Source of the DNA: a virus
Taxonomy: Duplodnaviria > Heunggongvirae > Uroviricota > Caudoviricetes
Direction: 5' to 3' (one strand)
Length of the DNA: 8,488 nucleotides
IMG/VR virus record: IMGVR_UViG_2531839449_000010
Coordinates: 1-8,488 of that record
The notes beneath the pieces are model-generated. The model worked only from the letters and a program-made list of their open reading frames with translations. It made no database searches and was not told the DNA's origin. Each line of letters starts with the position of its first letter. The first letter of the stretch is position 1. This document shows positions 1-5,927 of this stretch, in pieces. The position numbers and the translations under genes are program-made.

Positions 1-395
1 AGCTGGTCAGGTCGTTCTGCCACGAACTGACGGTTTACGCGGTCGCCTGCGGCAACGGCTTTCCGGCTGATGGTCGTACGGACCTTTTTACCCCGGAGAA
101 CACCGGCAAGTCCCATAACCGCCATGAGACGTGCCACTGTACATCTGGCCACCCTGATTCCTTCCCGTAACAACTGACGCCAGACTTTACGCACACCGTA
201 CACCTGATGATTTTCATCGTATACGCGCTGTATCTCTCTCTTCAGCCAGTCGTCGTGCTGCGCACGGGCACTGCGTTTATCCGGATGATGTCGCTGTTGC
301 TGACAATGGTAATACGTTGACGGGGCAATATGCAGTTCGCTGCATACCGGTCCGACCCCGTACTGCTCACGCAGCTTATCCAGCAGTGGCATCAT
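1..395 (-). CDS. IS3-family transposase OrfB (DDE integrase-type), N-terminal part only; normally expressed as an OrfAB fusion by -1 frameshift
   Basis: Hand translation of the rc from 395 gives [132 protein letters not shown], open to the window edge. It is in the -1 frame relative to orfA and is absent from the ORF track because no stop lies in the window. Confidence 0.8.
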
Positions 396-718
396 TTTTT
401 CCAGAGGCGGTCGAACTCCGCCTTCGCAAAATAAGCGGAAGCCTGGCGAAGGATATCGTTACTGCGGCGCAGTTCACGATTTTCACGTTCCAGCTCTTTC
501 AGACGCTGACGTTCAGCGCTGGTGAGCCCACCATCACCGCCCCCGGTATCCCGCTCATGCTGGCGAACCCAGACACGCAGAGTCTCCGGCGTACAGCCAA
601 TCTTTGGGGCAATGGAGCAAATTGCCGCCCACTGTGAGTCATATTCATCCTGACTTTCCAGAACCATACGAATCGCCCGCTGACGGACTTCGGGGGAAAA
701 ACGAGTATTTTTAGTCAT
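392..718 (-). CDS. IS3-family transposase OrfA (helix-turn-helix DNA-binding subunit)
   Basis: 108-aa [33 protein letters not shown]..., identical to the right-hand copy at 7942..8268. C-terminal leucine-rich heptad region ([20 protein letters not shown]) is typical of IS3 OrfA. AGG at 731..733, 9 nt upstream of the ATG, is a possible Shine-Dalgarno. Confidence 0.9.
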
Positions 719-723
719 CCTGT

Positions 724-1326
724 TTACCTCTTTCTCAGGGAGTTTAGTCTCCAGGATTTCCGGGGCGGTTCAACCATCTCAATGGATGGTGTTCCGCATT
801 GGTTACCCCAGACATCAAATCCATGCGAGGTGTGACGGGCGAACAGTTCTATCCGGGGAACATCGCCAAGAAGTTGCACAAGTTTTTCTCGCGCCATATC
901 CGGCTTGCGGGAGTGATCAAGGCGCGGTGCAGTGAATGACTGGATTATTCCGGCGTTAATGCGTTCAGGCAGATTTCCTTTCACTGCAAAAAGGCAGTCT
1001 TCGCTGTTAGCGCGAGTGGTGCTACCCATACCCATGACCAGCTTGTCGGTCTGTCTTTTCCCGCATTTGTTCCAGGTTAATCCTTTCATCGTCACCAGAC
1101 GAAAGCCCCACGCTTCTACAACCTTCAATGCTTCAAGTGGTTGTGTAGGCACCCACCACATAGCCAACAGGCAATTATCGGCTGCCAGTTCCCATACCGG
1201 GAGGCGGCAGATATCCAGAAGACTCATGACCGGATATTTAAAACTTGCACCGCGTTGACCATCGGTTGCTTTGTCTCGGAATGTCCAGGGGGGATCTGCG
1301 TAAATGAGAGTGTATTTTTTCGTCAT
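724..1326 (-). CDS. MT-A70-family DNA N6-adenine methyltransferase (phage orphan methylase); 3' end interrupted by the IS, so residues 186-200 are IS-encoded
   Basis: N-terminal motif LIYADPPW (catalytic DPPW). The ATG at 1324..1326 overlaps the stop of the upstream gene (ATGA). The reading frame crosses the IS boundary at 772/773; the tail [15 protein letters not shown] is translated from IS terminal sequence. Confidence 0.8.
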
Positions 1327-2312: not shown

Positions 2313-2764
2313 GATTTATCTCCCTTAAGCATGGCAGCGCGGCAGGCATCCTCTACGCCCTTAACTGCATCTGCGCAGTAGTTATAGCGATTGCATTCCA
2401 CTAACTTCTGCTTGAGGTTTTCAATTGCTTGCGCGACATCAGCCTGTATTACCGGAACTGGCGGAGTGGTATATAGTTTTCGGCATTTGTTTATCCAACC
2501 GGCATGGTCAGGCGTGTCTGTAAAGCGCAAATCGTTTTCGTAGCCCTCACGACTACGTTCTTTCCATTCCGTCCACGGAACACCGCTATTCCAAGTGGGG
2601 CGAGTGCAGGACTGATACAGAACAGGTTCAGCTTCCAGCGCTGCCAGAGCAATCCGTGCCAGTTCTTCCGCTTCTTCTGCTGGCAGTACAACGTTGCTAC
2701 CAGGTCCGTATGTTTCGCGCCACTGCTTGATTGTCAGCAGTCGCTCTTTGGTAATAGTGGTCAT
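2309..2764 (-). CDS. hypothetical prophage early-region protein (151 aa)
   Basis: ATG at 2762..2764 preceded by GAGGA at a 7-nt spacing and overlapping the upstream stop (ATGA). No family recognised. Confidence 0.55.
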   Translation of the reverse strand: MTTITKERLLTIKQWRETYGPGSNVVLPAEEAEELARIALAALEAEPVLYQSCTRPTWNSGVPWTEWKERSREGYENDLRFTDTPDHAGWINKCRKLYTTPPVPVIQADVAQAIENLKQKLVECNRYNYCADAVKGVEDACRAAMLKGDKS

Positions 2765-2970
2765 TTGTTAATCCTCAAAACTTTATGCCCGGGCGCAAAA
2801 GCACGCGTTTTGTCTTTGCTTATTCGCCAGCCATCCTTGCGCGCCTCTTTTGCACAGCCAGCCCATGACGTACCTATATACTCACCGAAGTCTGGCGACT
2901 TATATTTGCCATCTGTACACTGGAGGCAATCACAATAGAGATGCATGGTGTAACTTGCAGCAATAGCCAT
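2761..2970 (-). CDS. small cysteine-rich (putative zinc-binding) prophage protein, 69 aa from the internal ATG
   Basis: The track ORF 2761..3042 overlaps the upstream gene. The ATG at 2968..2970 (MAIAASYTMHLYCDCLQCTDGKYK...) has a strong AAGGAGAG Shine-Dalgarno 6 nt upstream and sits 1 nt after the upstream stop. Contains a C-x-C-x2-C ... C pattern. Confidence 0.55.
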   Translation of the reverse strand: MAIAASYTMHLYCDCLQCTDGKYKSPDFGEYIGTSWAGCAKEARKDGWRISKDKTRAFAPGHKVLRINK

Positions 2971-2971
2971 A

Positions 2972-3319
2972 TCACTCTCCTTTAGTGCGCAAGTGGTTTT
3001 TCCAGCGGTTTTGCTCCGCGCTGGGCTTTTTGCAAAAACCACAATCCATCATCCCGTAATATTTCATCAACCCCATCCGTCGGTTGCTGAGTCTCACCCA
3101 CTGCCAGACGCCAGGAGCGTTTCTACGAACTAACAGAATCTTTGCTTTACGGTTTTTCATCGTTTTGCTCTCCTGCATCTCTTTGCTGCTCGTCGTGCCG
3201 CTGCAATACCGGTATGGCGGCGCTTTGGTGTCGGGATGATGTTCTTTGCAATTAGCGCAGAAGCCCAAAAACGAGTCGGATACGGTAACAAACTGATACA
3301 TGCCACACGCATTACTCAC
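2972..3319 (-). CDS. cysteine-rich putative zinc-finger protein; start uncertain (GTG at 3319 gives 115 aa, ATG at 3161 gives 63 aa)
   Basis: Continuous open frame with Cys pairs (FCANCKEHH...YRYCSG and MMDCGFCKK). The GTG at 3317..3319 overlaps the upstream stop by 8 nt but has a poorly spaced AAAGGGGG. The internal ATG at 3159..3161 has a strong AGGAGAG at a 7-nt spacing. Confidence 0.45.
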   Translation of the reverse strand: MSNACGMYQFVTVSDSFLGFCANCKEHHPDTKAPPYRYCSGTTSSKEMQESKTMKNRKAKILLVRRNAPGVWQWVRLSNRRMGLMKYYGMMDCGFCKKPSAEQNRWKNHLRTKGE

Positions 3320-3860
3320 CCCCTTTGTTGCTAATGCTTACAGCCTGGCAAGCCTCTTTGAGTACCCAGTCAACAGCGTCTTTCCATGCTCCGGTTTCAA
3401 CAGATGGATTCTCACGCTTTACCTGTTCATAAAAGCGCACTGCTTTAATCAGTTCTTCCGGTACTACTGGCGATGCCTGTTTAGCTTCTAAATCAGCAAT
3501 TCTGTCAACCACGGCATCTACTGCATCTGAAAAACTGAAACAGTTACTCCATTCCGGCCTGTCCCCGGTTGCTGCAAAATACATATCAGCTAAAGCAGAC
3601 TCAGCATGGTCACGCTCATTAATGAGTTGCTCTTCGCTTTTCTCCTGTTCGGCTATGCGCTTACTTCCATCCGCGATTACTCCCTCGTAATACTCACGCT
3701 GCTCGTTGAGTTTTGATTTTGCTGCTTCCAACTCATCCAGTAGCGCCAGCACAACCTGAGGTGTGGCTTTCATACGAAATGCCAGCAATTTTTGAGGCGT
3801 TGCTACTGTTTCAATTGCTACTGCCGCCTCACGCAGTGCCTGGTAATTAATTTCGCTCAC
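3312..3860 (-). CDS. Ead/Ea22-like prophage protein (182 aa, GTG start)
   Basis: N-terminus (V/M)SEINYQALREAA... is the Ead/Ea22-like family signature as I recall it, followed by a coiled-coil-like charged heptad region. AAGGAGG lies 6 nt upstream of the GTG at 3858..3860, which overlaps the upstream stop (GTGA). Confidence 0.6.
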   Translation of the reverse strand: MSEINYQALREAAVAIETVATPQKLLAFRMKATPQVVLALLDELEAAKSKLNEQREYYEGVIADGSKRIAEQEKSEEQLINERDHAESALADMYFAATGDRPEWSNCFSFSDAVDAVVDRIADLEAKQASPVVPEELIKAVRFYEQVKRENPSVETGAWKDAVDWVLKEACQAVSISNKGGE

Positions 3861-4621
3861 TGGTTGCCTCCTTTGCGAAGCTCAGCGGCGAAAGATGTTG
3901 CTGCGGAAGCGATAATTGCATGCCGGTATTCACCATCAGAAAATAAAGAATCTCCCTTAAGTGCATTGACGATACTCTGATGATTTTTTGCCAGCATCTC
4001 CACGCCCTGCGCCCGTACTTCAGCCAGGCATTTGCGAAACTCGGAAACGTACTGTTCGACGCTCATTCCCCAGCTAAGTGGACATTCATTGAATGTTTCG
4101 CCTTCGTGCTCTTCATCAGGTAGCTCTTTGGTAAAGAACTCACGCTCAATGGCGTGGAGTGTGTCAGCAAAACGACGTAAGTTACTCAAACCTACCGTAA
4201 TGGAGAATTCAGGAGCATCACATCCGACGCCCATCTGCTGATAAACTGCTGTTTTGAAGGCCTTCAACTCCGCATTCTCCGCCGCCAGAGCCGAAAACTT
4301 CTCGTGTGCCAACTTAACAGCCGAATCAGCCTGCTTAATTGACTCAATCGCTTTCTGTTGGTCTTCGGCCAGCTTCGCTAAATTAGCCTCCAGTTCGGCC
4401 ATGCGTTCGTTTAATGCATCTCGTTCATCCAGTAGTGACAGCACGGTTTCTGGCCCGGCCATAATTTTAAAGGCGTGAATCGCATCAATATCAATACCAA
4501 GCTCCTTGAGCTTCTTTTCGCTTAATAAATCATCATCACCTGGTAATATTGACAGATGTGTCATCGCTGTAATTGCGCGTTCCGACACGTCACGCAATAC
4601 CTGATAGTCAATTTTGCTCAC
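3857..4621 (-). CDS. Ead/Ea22-like prophage protein, second tandem paralog (254 aa from the GTG at 4621)
   Basis: The track ORF 3857..4969 (370 aa) is over-extended. The in-frame GTG at 4619..4621 (VSKIDYQVLRDVSERA...) has the same AAGGAGGCAACCA-GTG initiation context as the paralog at 3860. The upstream stretch 4622..4969 is accounted for by two other coupled genes. Confidence 0.55.
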   Translation of the reverse strand: MSKIDYQVLRDVSERAITAMTHLSILPGDDDLLSEKKLKELGIDIDAIHAFKIMAGPETVLSLLDERDALNERMAELEANLAKLAEDQQKAIESIKQADSAVKLAHEKFSALAAENAELKAFKTAVYQQMGVGCDAPEFSITVGLSNLRRFADTLHAIEREFFTKELPDEEHEGETFNECPLSWGMSVEQYVSEFRKCLAEVRAQGVEMLAKNHQSIVNALKGDSLFSDGEYRHAIIASAATSFAAELRKGGNQ

Positions 4622-4856
4622 TGGTTGCCTCCTTTGTGGATCTGCGCTGCGATGCACGAAAAAAAGATTCCCGCGTATGACAGTTAAGAGCTGGTGCGAA
4701 AGCCGCGTTAAGAACGGCAGCATCACAGCCGTCATCGATATAGAGCGCAATTTTTTTCTCCAGGCGCGCTTTGGCTTCCTGCAACTGCATACCCCGGCAC
4801 GTACGCGGGATATACTCAGCAATTTGAGCGATAGATTTTTCGTTCTGTTTAAACAT
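4608..4856 (-). CDS. hypothetical small prophage protein (82 aa)
   Basis: ATG at 4854..4856 overlaps the upstream stop by 8 nt (ATGTTTAA). Its own stop lies 14 nt inside the next gene. No family recognised. Confidence 0.5.
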   Translation of the reverse strand: MFKQNEKSIAQIAEYIPRTCRGMQLQEAKARLEKKIALYIDDGCDAAVLNAAFAPALNCHTRESFFRASQRRSTKEATSEQN

Positions 4857-5052
4857 GCTTCACCTCGACAGGCTTGATTGTGTCGATCAGCAGTCTGCGG
4901 CGCGTATTTTCTGCAAAGTGGCGGCGTCCGGTTTCTTTGTGGTAAAACTCGTTTTTGCCGACGACCCACATCCGCTCTGTCTGGTGAAGTTTTTTTACCT
5001 GCGGGCCGCCTTTGGTGATCACAATGCCGGTATGGGTTTTTACGATTGTCAT
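4849..5052 (-). CDS. hypothetical small prophage protein (67 aa)
   Basis: ATG at 5050..5052 overlaps the PAPS-reductase-like stop (ATGA), with GAGG 9 nt upstream. No family recognised. Confidence 0.5.
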   Translation of the reverse strand: MTIVKTHTGIVITKGGPQVKKLHQTERMWVVGKNEFYHKETGRRHFAENTRRRLLIDTIKPVEVKHV

Positions 5053-5927
5053 GCCACTACCTCTTCGAATTTCAACTCCAATTGGTCACCCCAGATTTCA
5101 CATGATTCGGAACACGAACCAGTATCAAACCGCTTGGCCAGCACCATCGCTTGATACAAATTGCTGTAGTCGCTGTCGGCATACATCCTGGCAATCCCGT
5201 CAAGCGTCAGGTGACCACGGTACATAACGTCTTTACCTGTTCTGCGATGACCATCCCTGACGTGTTTGCCTGTAACCAGTTCATTAAAAACCCGCATCAG
5301 ACCAGGTTCGTCTTTACATGCAAGCCCCAGCTTTTGCGTTGACTTTTTGATGCAGAAAACACAGTTCCCGAGGTGCTCCGGGATTTGCAAATCAAAAGGT
5401 TGTTTTCGCCACCACCGGATAACATCCGACTTATCAAAATCTGACAGTTCGGCAAGATACCGGACGCCCGGTTTCGGTTTCAGCCTACGGGGTTCGTCTG
5501 CACGAATACCCAGCCACGTGATGTAGTTCCCTTGTCCGAAATGGTCATCGCAGTATTTTGTGAAGGGGGTGAGTTTTAATCTGTCAGTGCAGAACGCGCC
5601 GCCGATGTATGGCGTGCCATATTTTTTTACCATGTCCATAAACGGTTTAAGCACCGGCATTCGCGTCTGAATATCCTTTGGTTCCCATTCCGTATAACCA
5701 TTTGGCTGCCCAAGCTCTGGATTTATATCGACCTGCAACACGGTTAGCGGAATATCCCAGAACTTCACAACCTCCCGAATAAACCGGTACGTCAGCGGGT
5801 GTTCACATCCCGTATCCATGAGTATGTAATGAACGTTTTCACCAGCTTTTCTGCGTTGCTCCATAAGGTGGACGAGGTACGCCGATGTCCGACCGCCTGA
5901 AAAACTCACAACATGATGAGTGCTCAT
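5049..5927 (-). CDS. phosphoadenosine-phosphosulfate (PAPS) reductase-like PP-loop ATP-pyrophosphatase family protein (292 aa)
   Basis: N-terminal PP-loop motif VVSFSGGRTSAYL (SGGxxS). C-terminal cysteine pairs (CVFC, CSESC). Complete ORF starting at the ATG at 5925..5927. Confidence 0.8.
   Translation of the reverse strand: MSTHHVVSFSGGRTSAYLVHLMEQRRKAGENVHYILMDTGCEHPLTYRFIREVVKFWDIPLTVLQVDINPELGQPNGYTEWEPKDIQTRMPVLKPFMDMVKKYGTPYIGGAFCTDRLKLTPFTKYCDDHFGQGNYITWLGIRADEPRRLKPKPGVRYLAELSDFDKSDVIRWWRKQPFDLQIPEHLGNCVFCIKKSTQKLGLACKDEPGLMRVFNELVTGKHVRDGHRRTGKDVMYRGHLTLDGIARMYADSDYSNLYQAMVLAKRFDTGSCSESCEIWGDQLELKFEEVVA

What the first reader, a model, noticed from the sequence alone, without database searches (positions are those of the whole stretch)
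3312..4636. Tandem Ead/Ea22-like paralogs joined by a reused junction block read in different frames
A block of about 21 nt, GCTCACTGGTTGCCTCCTTTG, occurs at 3855..3875 and 4616..4636. Each copy carries the end of the upstream gene, the AAGGAGG ribosome-binding site and the GTG start of an Ead-like gene. The upstream gene reads the block in a different frame in the two places (tail ...LRKGGNQ versus ...EATSEQN). This looks like a portable gene-boundary linker of the kind that drives modular exchange in lambdoid phages.
Basis: seen in the sequence. Interest (0 to 1): 0.45.

Follow-up and report, generated by a model that had tools for sequence, protein, structure and literature searches.

The report
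Conserved gene-boundary linker in lambdoid prophages
The repeated 21-base block is real and is the core of a ~70-base conserved gene junction (end of one gene, ribosome-binding site, GTG start of the next) that recurs in about 30% of E. coli genomes between many different gene pairs, a clear but already-described kind of phage "boundary sequence" at which gene cassettes are swapped.

Summary
GCTCACTGGTTGCCTCCTTTG occurs exactly twice (3855-3875 and 4616-4636), with none expected by chance. On the minus strand each copy carries AAGGAGG, a 6-nt spacer and the GTG start of a Pfam Ead_Ea22 gene.

The block is the peak of a ~70-nt conserved island, from -32 to +40 relative to the GTG. Outside that island, junctions from different contexts are no more alike than random sequence.

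The exact 21-mer is present in at least 119 IMG/VR contigs. The 63-nt junction is found in 1609 of 5426 complete E. coli genomes. HK620 carries it with one mismatch at hkaH/hkaG.

Different genes sit on both sides. Upstream are Ead-like, DUF2737, Lar-like and three unnamed families. Downstream are many Ead variants, a PAPS-reductase-like gene and several unnamed genes. One upstream gene is followed by 29 downstream protein classes.

Phage Ss-VASD joins the same upstream gene to the Ead1-like gene through a single hybrid copy. It therefore lacks exactly the 761-bp Ead2 cassette.

The "different frame" reading in this window comes from a -1 slip in a T8 run; 76 of 80 relatives have T8. Two other gene families do read the block in that second frame without such a slip.

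The concept is published (Susskind-Botstein linkers; Clark et al. 2001 boundary sequences). Interest is therefore low to moderate.

The parts
3855..3875 (-). Boundary block, copy A. It holds the last codons of Ead2 (K G G N Q stop), the Shine-Dalgarno AAGGAGG (3873-3867), the spacer CAACCA, and the GTG start of Ead1 (3860-3858) overlapping the TGA stop of Ead2 (3859-3857).
4616..4636 (-). Boundary block, copy B. It holds AAGGAGG (4634-4628) and the GTG start of Ead2 (4621-4619). In T8 relatives the TGA at 4620-4618 is the stop of the upstream gene. In this window the upstream gene reads through in another frame to the TGA at 4610-4608.
3829..3891 (-). Conserved junction island A (63 nt). It covers the 3' tail of Ead2 (AAELRKGGNQ*), the block, and the first 10 codons of Ead1 (MSEINYQALR).
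4590..4652 (-). Conserved junction island B (63 nt), 81% identical to island A.
3312..3860 (-). Ead1, an Ead/Ea22-like protein of 182 aa with a GTG start. Its N-terminal ~50 aa is shared with Ead2 and its C-terminal part is unrelated. It ends at a second type of conserved boundary (...KGGE* TAATG).
3857..4621 (-). Ead2, an Ead/Ea22-like protein of 254 aa with a GTG start. Together with one boundary copy it forms the 761-bp unit (block-to-block spacing) that is absent from phage Ss-VASD and from the other phage records with the same two-piece match.
4608..4856 (-). Upstream gene ('gene3', phrog_1344, function unknown). It is 82 aa here because of the frameshift and 79 aa in relatives.
4659..4665 (-). 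Homopolymer run, T7 on the coding strand. It is T8 in 76 of 80 homologues and in the closest E. coli relative. The missing base shifts gene3 into the second frame across the block.

Best explanation
The block is the invariant core of a ~70-nt conserved boundary (linker) sequence of the early-left accessory (ea / exo-xis) region of E. coli lambdoid prophages.

In expression, it is a translational-coupling junction. The upstream gene ends inside it (usually ...AAQLRKGGNQ, with TGA). A perfect Shine-Dalgarno AAGGAGG lies 6 nt before a GTG that overlaps that stop (GTGA). The next gene, most often an Ead/Ea22-like gene beginning MS(E/K)I(N/D)YQALRE, starts there.

In evolution, the same island is shared by otherwise unrelated neighbours. 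It therefore offers a short patch of homology at which co-resident phages and prophages recombine. This most plausibly happens through phage single-strand-annealing recombinases of the Red-beta/RecT type. The result is that whole genes are inserted, deleted or replaced without disturbing the translation of their neighbours. The two copies in this window bracket one such cassette, Ead2.

Shown here: the anatomy, the distribution, the mosaic flanks, the hybrid junction and the exact cassette indel.
Inferred: that homologous recombination at the island, rather than selection acting on random joints, produces these junctions, and which recombinase does it.

The second-frame reading at copy B of this window is a secondary accident: a -1 slip in a T8 run, or possibly a sequencing error.
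For: 1. Distribution. The exact 21-mer is in at least 119 IMG/VR contigs. The 63-nt junction is in 1609 of 5426 complete E. coli genomes, at up to 10 places per genome. A 70-nt consensus of the junction matches 391 phage records, including Stx phages, HK620, HK75 and mEp phages.

2. Different flanks. Among 106 fully flanked junctions there are 21 upstream and 17 downstream DNA classes, 35 combinations and 2 four-gamete quartets.
- Upstream families: Ead_Ea22, DUF2737, Lar_restr_allev, phrog_1344 and two without a name.
- Downstream families: Ead_Ea22, PAPS_reduct and three without a name.

3. A test not selected on the block. Of 80 loci fetched through the upstream protein, nearly all carry the block or a variant differing by 1-2 nt. 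The 73 junctions that could be parsed lead into 29 downstream protein classes.

4. An island of conservation. Mean pairwise identity is 1.00 in the block, 0.58-0.82 in the adjacent 15-nt bins, and 0.28-0.35 beyond -31 and +45.

5. Exchange at the block.
- In Ss-VASD, window 5060-4590 and window 3891-3733 match adjacent DNA and overlap by the 63-nt island.
- That single junction is B-type up to GTGAGCAAAATT and A-type from AATTACC onward, so it lacks exactly the 761-bp Ead2 unit.
- The other Stx2a phages listed show the same two-piece match.

6. Cassette arrays. 38 of 204 sequences examined (203 loci and the window) have 2-3 direct copies spaced 253-1405 nt apart. A 74-aa gene sits between the block and an Ead start, behind 3 different upstream genes.

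7. Breakpoints. Homology to the window in the loci selected through the upstream gene ends at 4580-4619 for 71 of 242 HSP endpoints.

8. Length is adequate for annealases. For junction pairs that differ on both sides, the median exact tract is 26 nt and 83% are at least 23 nt. The Red-beta MEPS is 23-27 bp and the RecA MEPS is 31-34 bp (PMC3945230). The closest relative has RecT and lambda-exonuclease genes in the same operon.

9. Two upstream reading frames. The block is read as KGGNQ* in most cases and as KEATSE..* by Lar-like and 105-aa genes. The tail peptide therefore cannot be what conserves it.
Against: - In this window the two copies share only 21 exact nt. That is just under the published Red-beta MEPS.
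- A perfect SD, a fixed spacer and an overlapping stop/start are themselves under selection. Part of the conservation therefore needs no recombination role.
- Breakpoints also pile up at other gene boundaries (5040-5059, 2760-2779) and inside the Ead genes (3720-3739, 4260-4379). I did not test those places for linkers. Selection against disrupted genes could explain part of the clustering.
- The block-selected data set is biased towards junctions that carry the block.
- No experiment was done.
Confidence: 0.72

Rival explanations
1. The block is conserved only because it is a good translation-initiation and coupling signal attached to conserved protein termini (the Ead N-terminus and an AAQLRKGGNQ tail). 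On this view the mosaic joints arise by illegitimate recombination anywhere, and selection keeps only those that fall at gene boundaries (the Hendrix model).
For: - The block contains a perfect SD, a 6-nt spacer and a GTGA stop/start overlap.
- The whole operon is packed with 4-nt overlaps, as described for lambdoid early and nin regions (PMC8022706).
- Breakpoints also cluster at other gene boundaries and inside genes.
Against: - The spacer CAACCA and the third codon positions need not be fixed for SD function, yet they are identical between junctions whose flanks are at random-level identity.
- Unrelated upstream proteins share the same tail, and some read the block in another frame.
- The Ss-VASD joint is a precise hybrid within the island, with the indel bounded exactly by the repeats.
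Confidence: 0.18
2. The two copies are simply left over from a local tandem duplication of one Ead gene in this prophage, followed by divergence. No inter-phage exchange is involved.
For: - Two adjacent genes belong to the same Pfam family, in the same orientation and with similar 5' ends.
Against: - The proteins are only 29% identical over the first 53/76 residues and unrelated beyond that, while the junction is 81-100% identical.
- Each half has closer relatives in other contexts. An Ead1-like gene lies directly behind gene3 in Ss-VASD.
- The same boundary precedes non-Ead genes.
- The block occurs in hundreds of other arrangements.
Confidence: 0.06
3. The second-frame reading at copy B is a designed dual-coding feature of this locus, or alternatively is not biological at all and is a homopolymer sequencing error in the source assembly.
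For: - T7 variants occur in 3 of 80 other contigs on different backgrounds, so the variant does exist in public data.
- The alternative frame always meets a stop within 14 nt.
Against: - For design: 76 of 80 homologues, and a relative that is 99.1% identical, have T8. The family profile phrog_1344 is 79 aa, which is the T8 length.
- Real mutation versus sequencing error cannot be told apart from the sequence alone.
Confidence: 0.04

Closest known systems
Short conserved boundary / linker sequences of lambdoid phages (Susskind & Botstein 1978; Botstein 1980 modular theory; Clark, Inwood, Cloutier & Dhillon 2001, HK620 genome paper, cited for this in PMC3029335, PMC2327257 and PMC2839356)
   Same: - It is a short conserved sequence at gene boundaries.
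- It is shared by phages whose adjacent genes are unrelated.
- It was proposed as a site of homologous recombination that reassorts genes.
- The same junction, with one mismatch, lies between hkaH and hkaG of HK620 itself.
   Different: I found no difference in kind. I could not read Clark et al. 2001, so I cannot say whether this exact sequence is among those they list. The counts, the island limits, the two reading frames and the cassette arrays reported here are additional detail.
Mosaic ea22 genes of lambda and Stx phages (PMC10834534)
   Same: The proteins share an N-terminal segment and a coiled-coil (the Ead_Ea22 signature) and have unrelated C-terminal domains. The same pattern is seen for Ead1 and Ead2.
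   Different: That work treats mosaicism within the protein. It does not treat the intergenic boundary sequence or tandem arrays. Lambda itself matches only the coding half of the island, at 87% over consensus positions 32-70.
PeSL (promoter-early stem-loop) mobile regulatory cassettes of T4-type phages (PMC2839356)
   Same: These are conserved regulatory sequences between genes that act as linkers for insertion, deletion or replacement of single-gene modules.
   Different: PeSLs carry a promoter and a terminator-like stem-loop, and they isolate cassettes transcriptionally. The block here has no conserved structure and no promoter role. It couples translation within one operon.
Relaxed homologous recombination by Rad52-like phage recombinases (PMC2327257, PMC3945230)
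   Same: These papers give the mechanism by which short, partly diverged homologies generate mosaics between lambdoid phages and prophages. The exact tracts measured here (median 26 nt) fall in the reported Red-beta MEPS range.
   Different: Those papers measured longer homeologous regions of 300-3000 bp. They did not test a ~70-nt gene boundary.

Membership tests
Lambdoid conserved boundary (linker) sequence | A short conserved sequence lying exactly at a gene boundary | tested here: met
   The block spans the stop of the upstream gene, the SD and the start of the downstream gene at both copies.
Lambdoid conserved boundary (linker) sequence | Shared by different phages in which the genes on either side are not homologous | tested here: met
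   There are 21 upstream and 17 downstream DNA classes and 35 combinations. At least 6 upstream and at least 5 downstream protein families are involved. One upstream gene is followed by 29 downstream classes.
Lambdoid conserved boundary (linker) sequence | Similarity confined to the boundary and falling to background outside it | tested here: met
   Pairwise identity is 1.00 in the block, 0.58-0.82 next to it, and 0.28-0.35 beyond -31 and +45.
Lambdoid conserved boundary (linker) sequence | Traces of recombination at the sequence | tested here: met
   Ss-VASD has a hybrid B/A junction and an exact 761-bp cassette indel. There are two four-gamete quartets. Homology endpoints cluster at 4580-4619.
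Lambdoid conserved boundary (linker) sequence | Long enough to support homologous recombination in vivo | tested here: inconclusive
   The two window copies share 21 exact nt. Across junction pairs that differ on both sides the median is 26 nt and 83% are at least 23 nt. The published MEPS is 23-27 bp for Red-beta and 31-34 bp for RecA (PMC3945230).
Lambdoid conserved boundary (linker) sequence | Recombination frequency at the sequence is elevated in crosses | not testable with these tools
   This needs phage crosses.
Ead/Ea22-like protein family (Pfam PF13935) | Score above the Pfam gathering threshold (27 bits) | tested here: met
   Ead1 scores 42.8 bits and Ead2 scores 56.6 bits, with Ead2 residues 2-107 aligned to profile positions 1-120.
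Translationally coupled overlapping genes (GTGA/ATGA type) | An SD inside the upstream ORF 5-9 nt before the start, and a stop codon overlapping the start | tested here: met
   AAGGAGG, 6 nt, then GTG. The GTGA overlap is present at copy A. At copy B the overlap is used in T8 relatives but not in this window, because of the frameshift.
Structured mobile cassette sites (integron attC, T4 PeSL) | A conserved stem-loop at the cassette boundary | tested here: not met
   The folding z-scores are -1.89 and +0.94 for the two copies. SD pairing is no different from shuffled-upstream controls, 0.35 against 0.38. Rfam gives no hit there.

The most novel reading that the evidence does not exclude
The early-left Ead region may be a true cassette array. 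On this reading, accessory genes (possibly counter-defence genes such as the Lar-like, PAPS-reductase-like and variable Ead C-terminal domains) are punctuated by two dedicated ~70-nt boundary types: ...LRKGGNQ*/GTG at entry and between cassettes, and ...GIRIKGE*/ATG at exit. The phage's own annealase (RecT, Red-beta or Sak4) would use these during replication to swap cassettes with resident prophages at high frequency. This would be a homology-based functional analogue of integron cassettes, with the boundary selected for exchangeability as well as for translation.
Probability: 0.15. Interest if true: 0.6.

Novelty: already known. Interest (0 to 1): 0.27.

Why it matters
The finding bears on an old dispute about phage mosaicism. 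One view holds that new gene combinations arise by homologous exchange at conserved linkers. The other holds that they arise by random illegitimate joints filtered by selection.

This boundary is an unusually clean and abundant natural example for the first view. It has thousands of copies, dozens of partner genes, and precise cassette gain or loss. Its exact tracts sit right at the pairing minimum of phage annealases. It could therefore serve as a defined substrate for measuring linker-mediated exchange.

There is also a practical point for annotation. Automatic pipelines miss the GTG starts at this junction. In E. coli E2855, PGAP starts Ead2 19 codons late and labels Ead1 a pseudogene.

The concept itself is published, and the finding does not change it.

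Tried and rejected
- RNA structure at the junction. Single-sequence folds are inconsistent between the two copies (z = -1.89 and +0.94). Across 54 distinct upstream contexts, the probability that the SD is unpaired equals that of shuffled-upstream controls (0.35 versus 0.38). Rfam finds only the IS3-type ALIL pseudoknots in the flanking IS copies. I rejected an SD-sequestering or riboregulatory element.

- Dual-frame design at copy B. Rejected for this window in favour of a T8 to T7 frameshift.

- My first ORF picker was wrong twice. In one search it chose the downstream gene's own frame. In one search it put three T8 copies of gene3 in the second frame because a spurious 120-aa ORF was longer. 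After correction by homology, the counts are 115 junctions in the KGGNQ frame and 6 in the KEATSE frame.

- Single-linkage clustering of the DNA flanks lumps many Ead genes into one class, because they are themselves mosaic. The class counts are therefore lower bounds.

- A text search for the block and for the tail peptide in the open-access library found nothing. Clark et al. 2001 is not held. I could not check whether this exact sequence was listed there.

- The genome-contig scan gave only 2 species representatives, both Escherichia. The exact 21-mer is narrowly distributed, although diverged versions occur in Salmonella phages.
Full report
**1. Observation**

The 21-mer GCTCACTGGTTGCCTCCTTTG is present at 3855-3875 and 4616-4636. 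There are no further copies even at 3 mismatches, and no match in any of 200 dinucleotide-preserving shuffles.

All genes here are on the minus strand, where the block reads CAAAGGAGGCAACCAGTGAGC. It contains a perfect Shine-Dalgarno AAGGAGG, a 6-nt spacer and a GTG.

- The GTG at 3860 opens a 182-aa ORF (Ead1, 3312-3860).
- The GTG at 4621 opens a 254-aa protein (Ead2, 3857-4621).
- Both pass the Pfam Ead_Ea22 gathering score. Ead2 aligns from its residue 2 to profile position 1, which supports the GTG start.
- Ead2 ends ...LRKGGNQ, and its TGA overlaps the GTG of Ead1 (GTGA).
- The 82-aa gene upstream of Ead2 (4608-4856) crosses the block in another frame (...KEATSEQN) and stops 13 nt inside Ead2.

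The repeat is longer than stated: 63 nt at 81% identity (3829-3891 versus 4590-4652). The two proteins are alike only over their first ~50-75 residues, at 29% identity.

**2. The setting**

The window is a piece of an E. coli lambdoid prophage early-left accessory region. It contains these genes:

- MT-A70 methylase
- DUF551
- two Ead-like genes
- phrog_1344
- phrog_1226
- a PAPS-reductase-like gene
- a YfdQ-like gene

The region is bracketed by two inverted IS629/IS1203 copies.

No complete E. coli genome covers 80% of the window. No phage record covers more than 33% of the 1.57 kb around the finding. The region is therefore strongly mosaic.

The closest relative is E. coli E2855, at 99.1% identity over 3.9 kb. 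It has the same two blocks 761 nt apart, and it continues upstream into lambda-exonuclease and RecT genes.

**3. Is the block portable?**

*Distribution and flanks.*

- The sequences immediately upstream fall into many unrelated types.
- Downstream, most are Ead starts (MS[EK]I[ND]YQALRE...), but five other starts occur.
- Among 106 junctions with 400-nt flanks there are 21 upstream and 17 downstream DNA classes, 35 combinations, and two quartets with all four combinations.

*Protein families.*

- Upstream partners: Ead-like proteins, DUF2737, Lar-like restriction-alleviation proteins, phrog_1344, and 175-aa and 105-aa families without a Pfam match.
- Downstream partners: Ead-like proteins, a 335-aa PAPS-reductase-like protein, and 74-aa, 118-aa and 154-aa proteins without a Pfam match.

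*A test not selected on the block.* I fetched 80 loci through the upstream protein alone.

- Nearly all carry the block or a variant differing by 1-2 nt.
- The 73 junctions that could be parsed lead into 29 downstream protein classes at 80% identity, including four non-Ead families.

*Cassettes and arrays.*

- A 74-aa gene is found inserted between the block and an Ead start. It sits behind three different upstream genes and before at least three different Ead genes.
- 38 of 204 sequences examined (203 loci and the window) have two or three direct copies of the core, 253-1405 nt apart. That is one gene per interval.

*Prevalence.*

- The 63-nt junction matches in 1609 of 5426 complete E. coli genomes. 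It occurs at up to ten places per genome, and 384 places are on plasmids.
- A 70-nt consensus of the junction matches 391 phage records.
- Among GTDB species representatives, the exact 21-mer occurs only in two Escherichia genomes.

**4. Limits of conservation**

I anchored one junction per flank combination (35 in all) on the GTG and measured mean pairwise identity in 15-nt bins:

| Position relative to GTG | Mean pairwise identity |
|---|---|
| Block | 1.00 (by construction) |
| -30 to -16 | 0.58 |
| First 15 nt of the downstream gene | 0.82 |
| Next 15 nt | 0.70 |
| Next 15 nt after that | 0.51 |
| Beyond -31 and beyond +45 | 0.28-0.35 (random level) |

The unit is thus a ~70-nt island. It consists of the codons for ...AAQLRKGGNQ*, the SD, the GTG, and about 13 codons of the next gene.

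**5. Evidence for exchange at the island**

- In Shigella phage Ss-VASD, DNA homologous to window 5060-4590 (97.9% identity) and to window 3891-3733 (95% identity) is contiguous. The two matches overlap by the 63-nt island.
- The single junction there is of the copy-B type up to GTGAGCAAAATT and of the copy-A type from AATTACC onward.
- Relative to that phage, the window therefore has exactly one extra boundary-to-boundary unit of 761 bp, which is Ead2. This is what unequal or inter-element homologous recombination within the island would produce.
- The other Stx2a phages listed give the same two-piece match.
- In the loci selected through the upstream gene, homology to the window ends at 4580-4619 for 71 of 242 HSP endpoints.
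- For junction pairs whose flanks differ on both sides, the exact tract through the block has a median of 26 nt. It is at least 23 nt in 83% of pairs and at least 31 nt in 28%.
- The published minimal efficient pairing segments are 23-27 bp for Red-beta and 31-34 bp for RecA (PMC3945230). Phage Rad52-like recombinases are known to make mosaics on short or diverged homology (PMC2327257, PMC3945230).

**6. The frame question**

Across the 121 junctions with an upstream sequence, 115 upstream genes end KGGNQ* with the GTGA overlap. Six read the block as KEATSE.. and stop 14 nt into the next gene (with the corrections given under "tried and rejected").

- Five of the six are Lar-like or 105-aa genes. 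These use that frame natively.
- The sixth is the gene in this window, and there the cause is different. The coding strand has T7 (4659-4665), where 76 of 80 homologues have T8.
- The alignment to E2855, 99.1% identical, contains a single gap, and E2855 has an 8-base run where the window has 7.
- With T8 the gene ends ...IAAQIHKGGNQ* at the GTGA, as annotated in Ss-VASD. It is then 79 aa long, which is the length of phrog_1344.

In this window it reflects a frameshift or a homopolymer sequencing error, not a property of the linker. The block is nevertheless read in two frames by different gene families elsewhere. This shows that it is not the tail peptide that is being conserved.

**7. What the block does in expression**

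This part is inference from established knowledge of translational coupling. A strong SD lies inside the upstream ORF, the start codon is a weak GTG, and the stop overlaps the start by 4 nt. This is the same packing seen throughout this operon (ATGA overlaps at 2761-2764, 2309-2312 and 5049-5052), and it is described for lambdoid early and nin regions (PMC8022706).

I found no conserved RNA structure at the junction.

**8. Comparison with what is known**

The idea that short conserved linker or boundary sequences between genes serve as homologous recombination sites for module exchange goes back to Susskind & Botstein (1978) and Botstein (1980). It was argued from sequence data for lambdoid phages by Clark et al. 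(2001) in the HK620 genome paper. PMC3029335, PMC2327257 and PMC2839356 cite it in exactly these terms.

HK620 itself has this junction, with one mismatch in the 21-mer, between hkaH and hkaG (the latter Ead-like), with the same GTGA overlap. I could not read that paper. A text search for the sequence in the open-access library found nothing.

The mosaic build of ea22 genes, with a shared N-terminus and coiled-coil and variable C-terminal domains, is also published (PMC10834534).

I therefore file the feature as already known in kind. What this analysis adds:

- the population counts
- the limits of the island
- the cassette arrays
- a second boundary type at the 3' ends of Ead genes (...GIRIKGE* TGA tATG, followed by at least 12 different genes)
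- the explanation of the frame anomaly

**9. Verdict**

"Drives" exchange remains an inference, since a rival view attributes the conservation to translation signals plus selection on random joints. The frame difference in this window is a frameshift.

Confidence in the boundary-sequence explanation is about 0.7. Interest is low to moderate.

Noticed in passing
window 172-772 and 7888-8488 (ALIL elements at 321-437 on the - strand and 8223-8339 on the + strand): There is a perfect 601-nt inverted repeat. It consists of two IS629/IS1203 (IS3-family) copies facing each other around 7.1 kb of prophage DNA. Each copy carries the ALIL frameshift pseudoknot (Rfam RF01497, 121.5 bits). The right-hand copy replaces the DNA that in E. 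coli E2855 continues into the exonuclease and RecT genes, so the operon here is cut off from its upstream part.
   Followed up: partly
window about 3300-3335 (3' end of Ead1); many loci, e.g. L001-L119: A second conserved boundary type lies at the 3' ends of Ead-like genes. It reads GGCATTCGCATCAAAGGAGAGTGA(T/G)ATG (...GIRIKGE* followed by ATG) and is followed by at least 12 different downstream genes. The window has the variant ...KGGE* TAATGCGTGTGGCATGTATC, which is shared with several loci.
   Followed up: partly
E. coli plasmids of ~90-115 kb (e.g. NZ_CP095126.1, NZ_CP058684.1); phages RCS47 and D6: 384 of the 2502 matches to the 63-nt junction in complete E. coli genomes lie on plasmids. 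P1-like phage-plasmids (RCS47, D6) match as well. The boundary is therefore not confined to integrated lambdoid prophages.
   Followed up: no
L203 (E. coli E2855, NZ_AP018796.1), locus 2478-3730 = window 3312-4564: RefSeq/PGAP starts the Ead2 homologue at an internal ATG, 19 codons after the GTG. It labels the Ead1 homologue a pseudogene 'missing N-terminus'. The GTG starts at this boundary are apparently missed by automatic annotation.
   Followed up: partly
L013 / L131 (IMGVR_UViG_2737471846_000004): A 5-nt deletion just upstream of the block (…CATCGCAGCTCCACAAAGG…) places the phrog_1344 gene in frame with the downstream Ead gene, suggesting a natural gene fusion across the boundary.
   Followed up: no
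window 3718-3752 and 4410-4444: There is a second, weaker direct repeat between the two Ead genes, 35 nt at 74% identity, covering the shared ...VLALLDE... motif. Homology breakpoints to other phages cluster just beside it, at 3720-3739. This suggests an intragenic exchange point between the N-terminal and C-terminal parts of Ead proteins.
   Followed up: no
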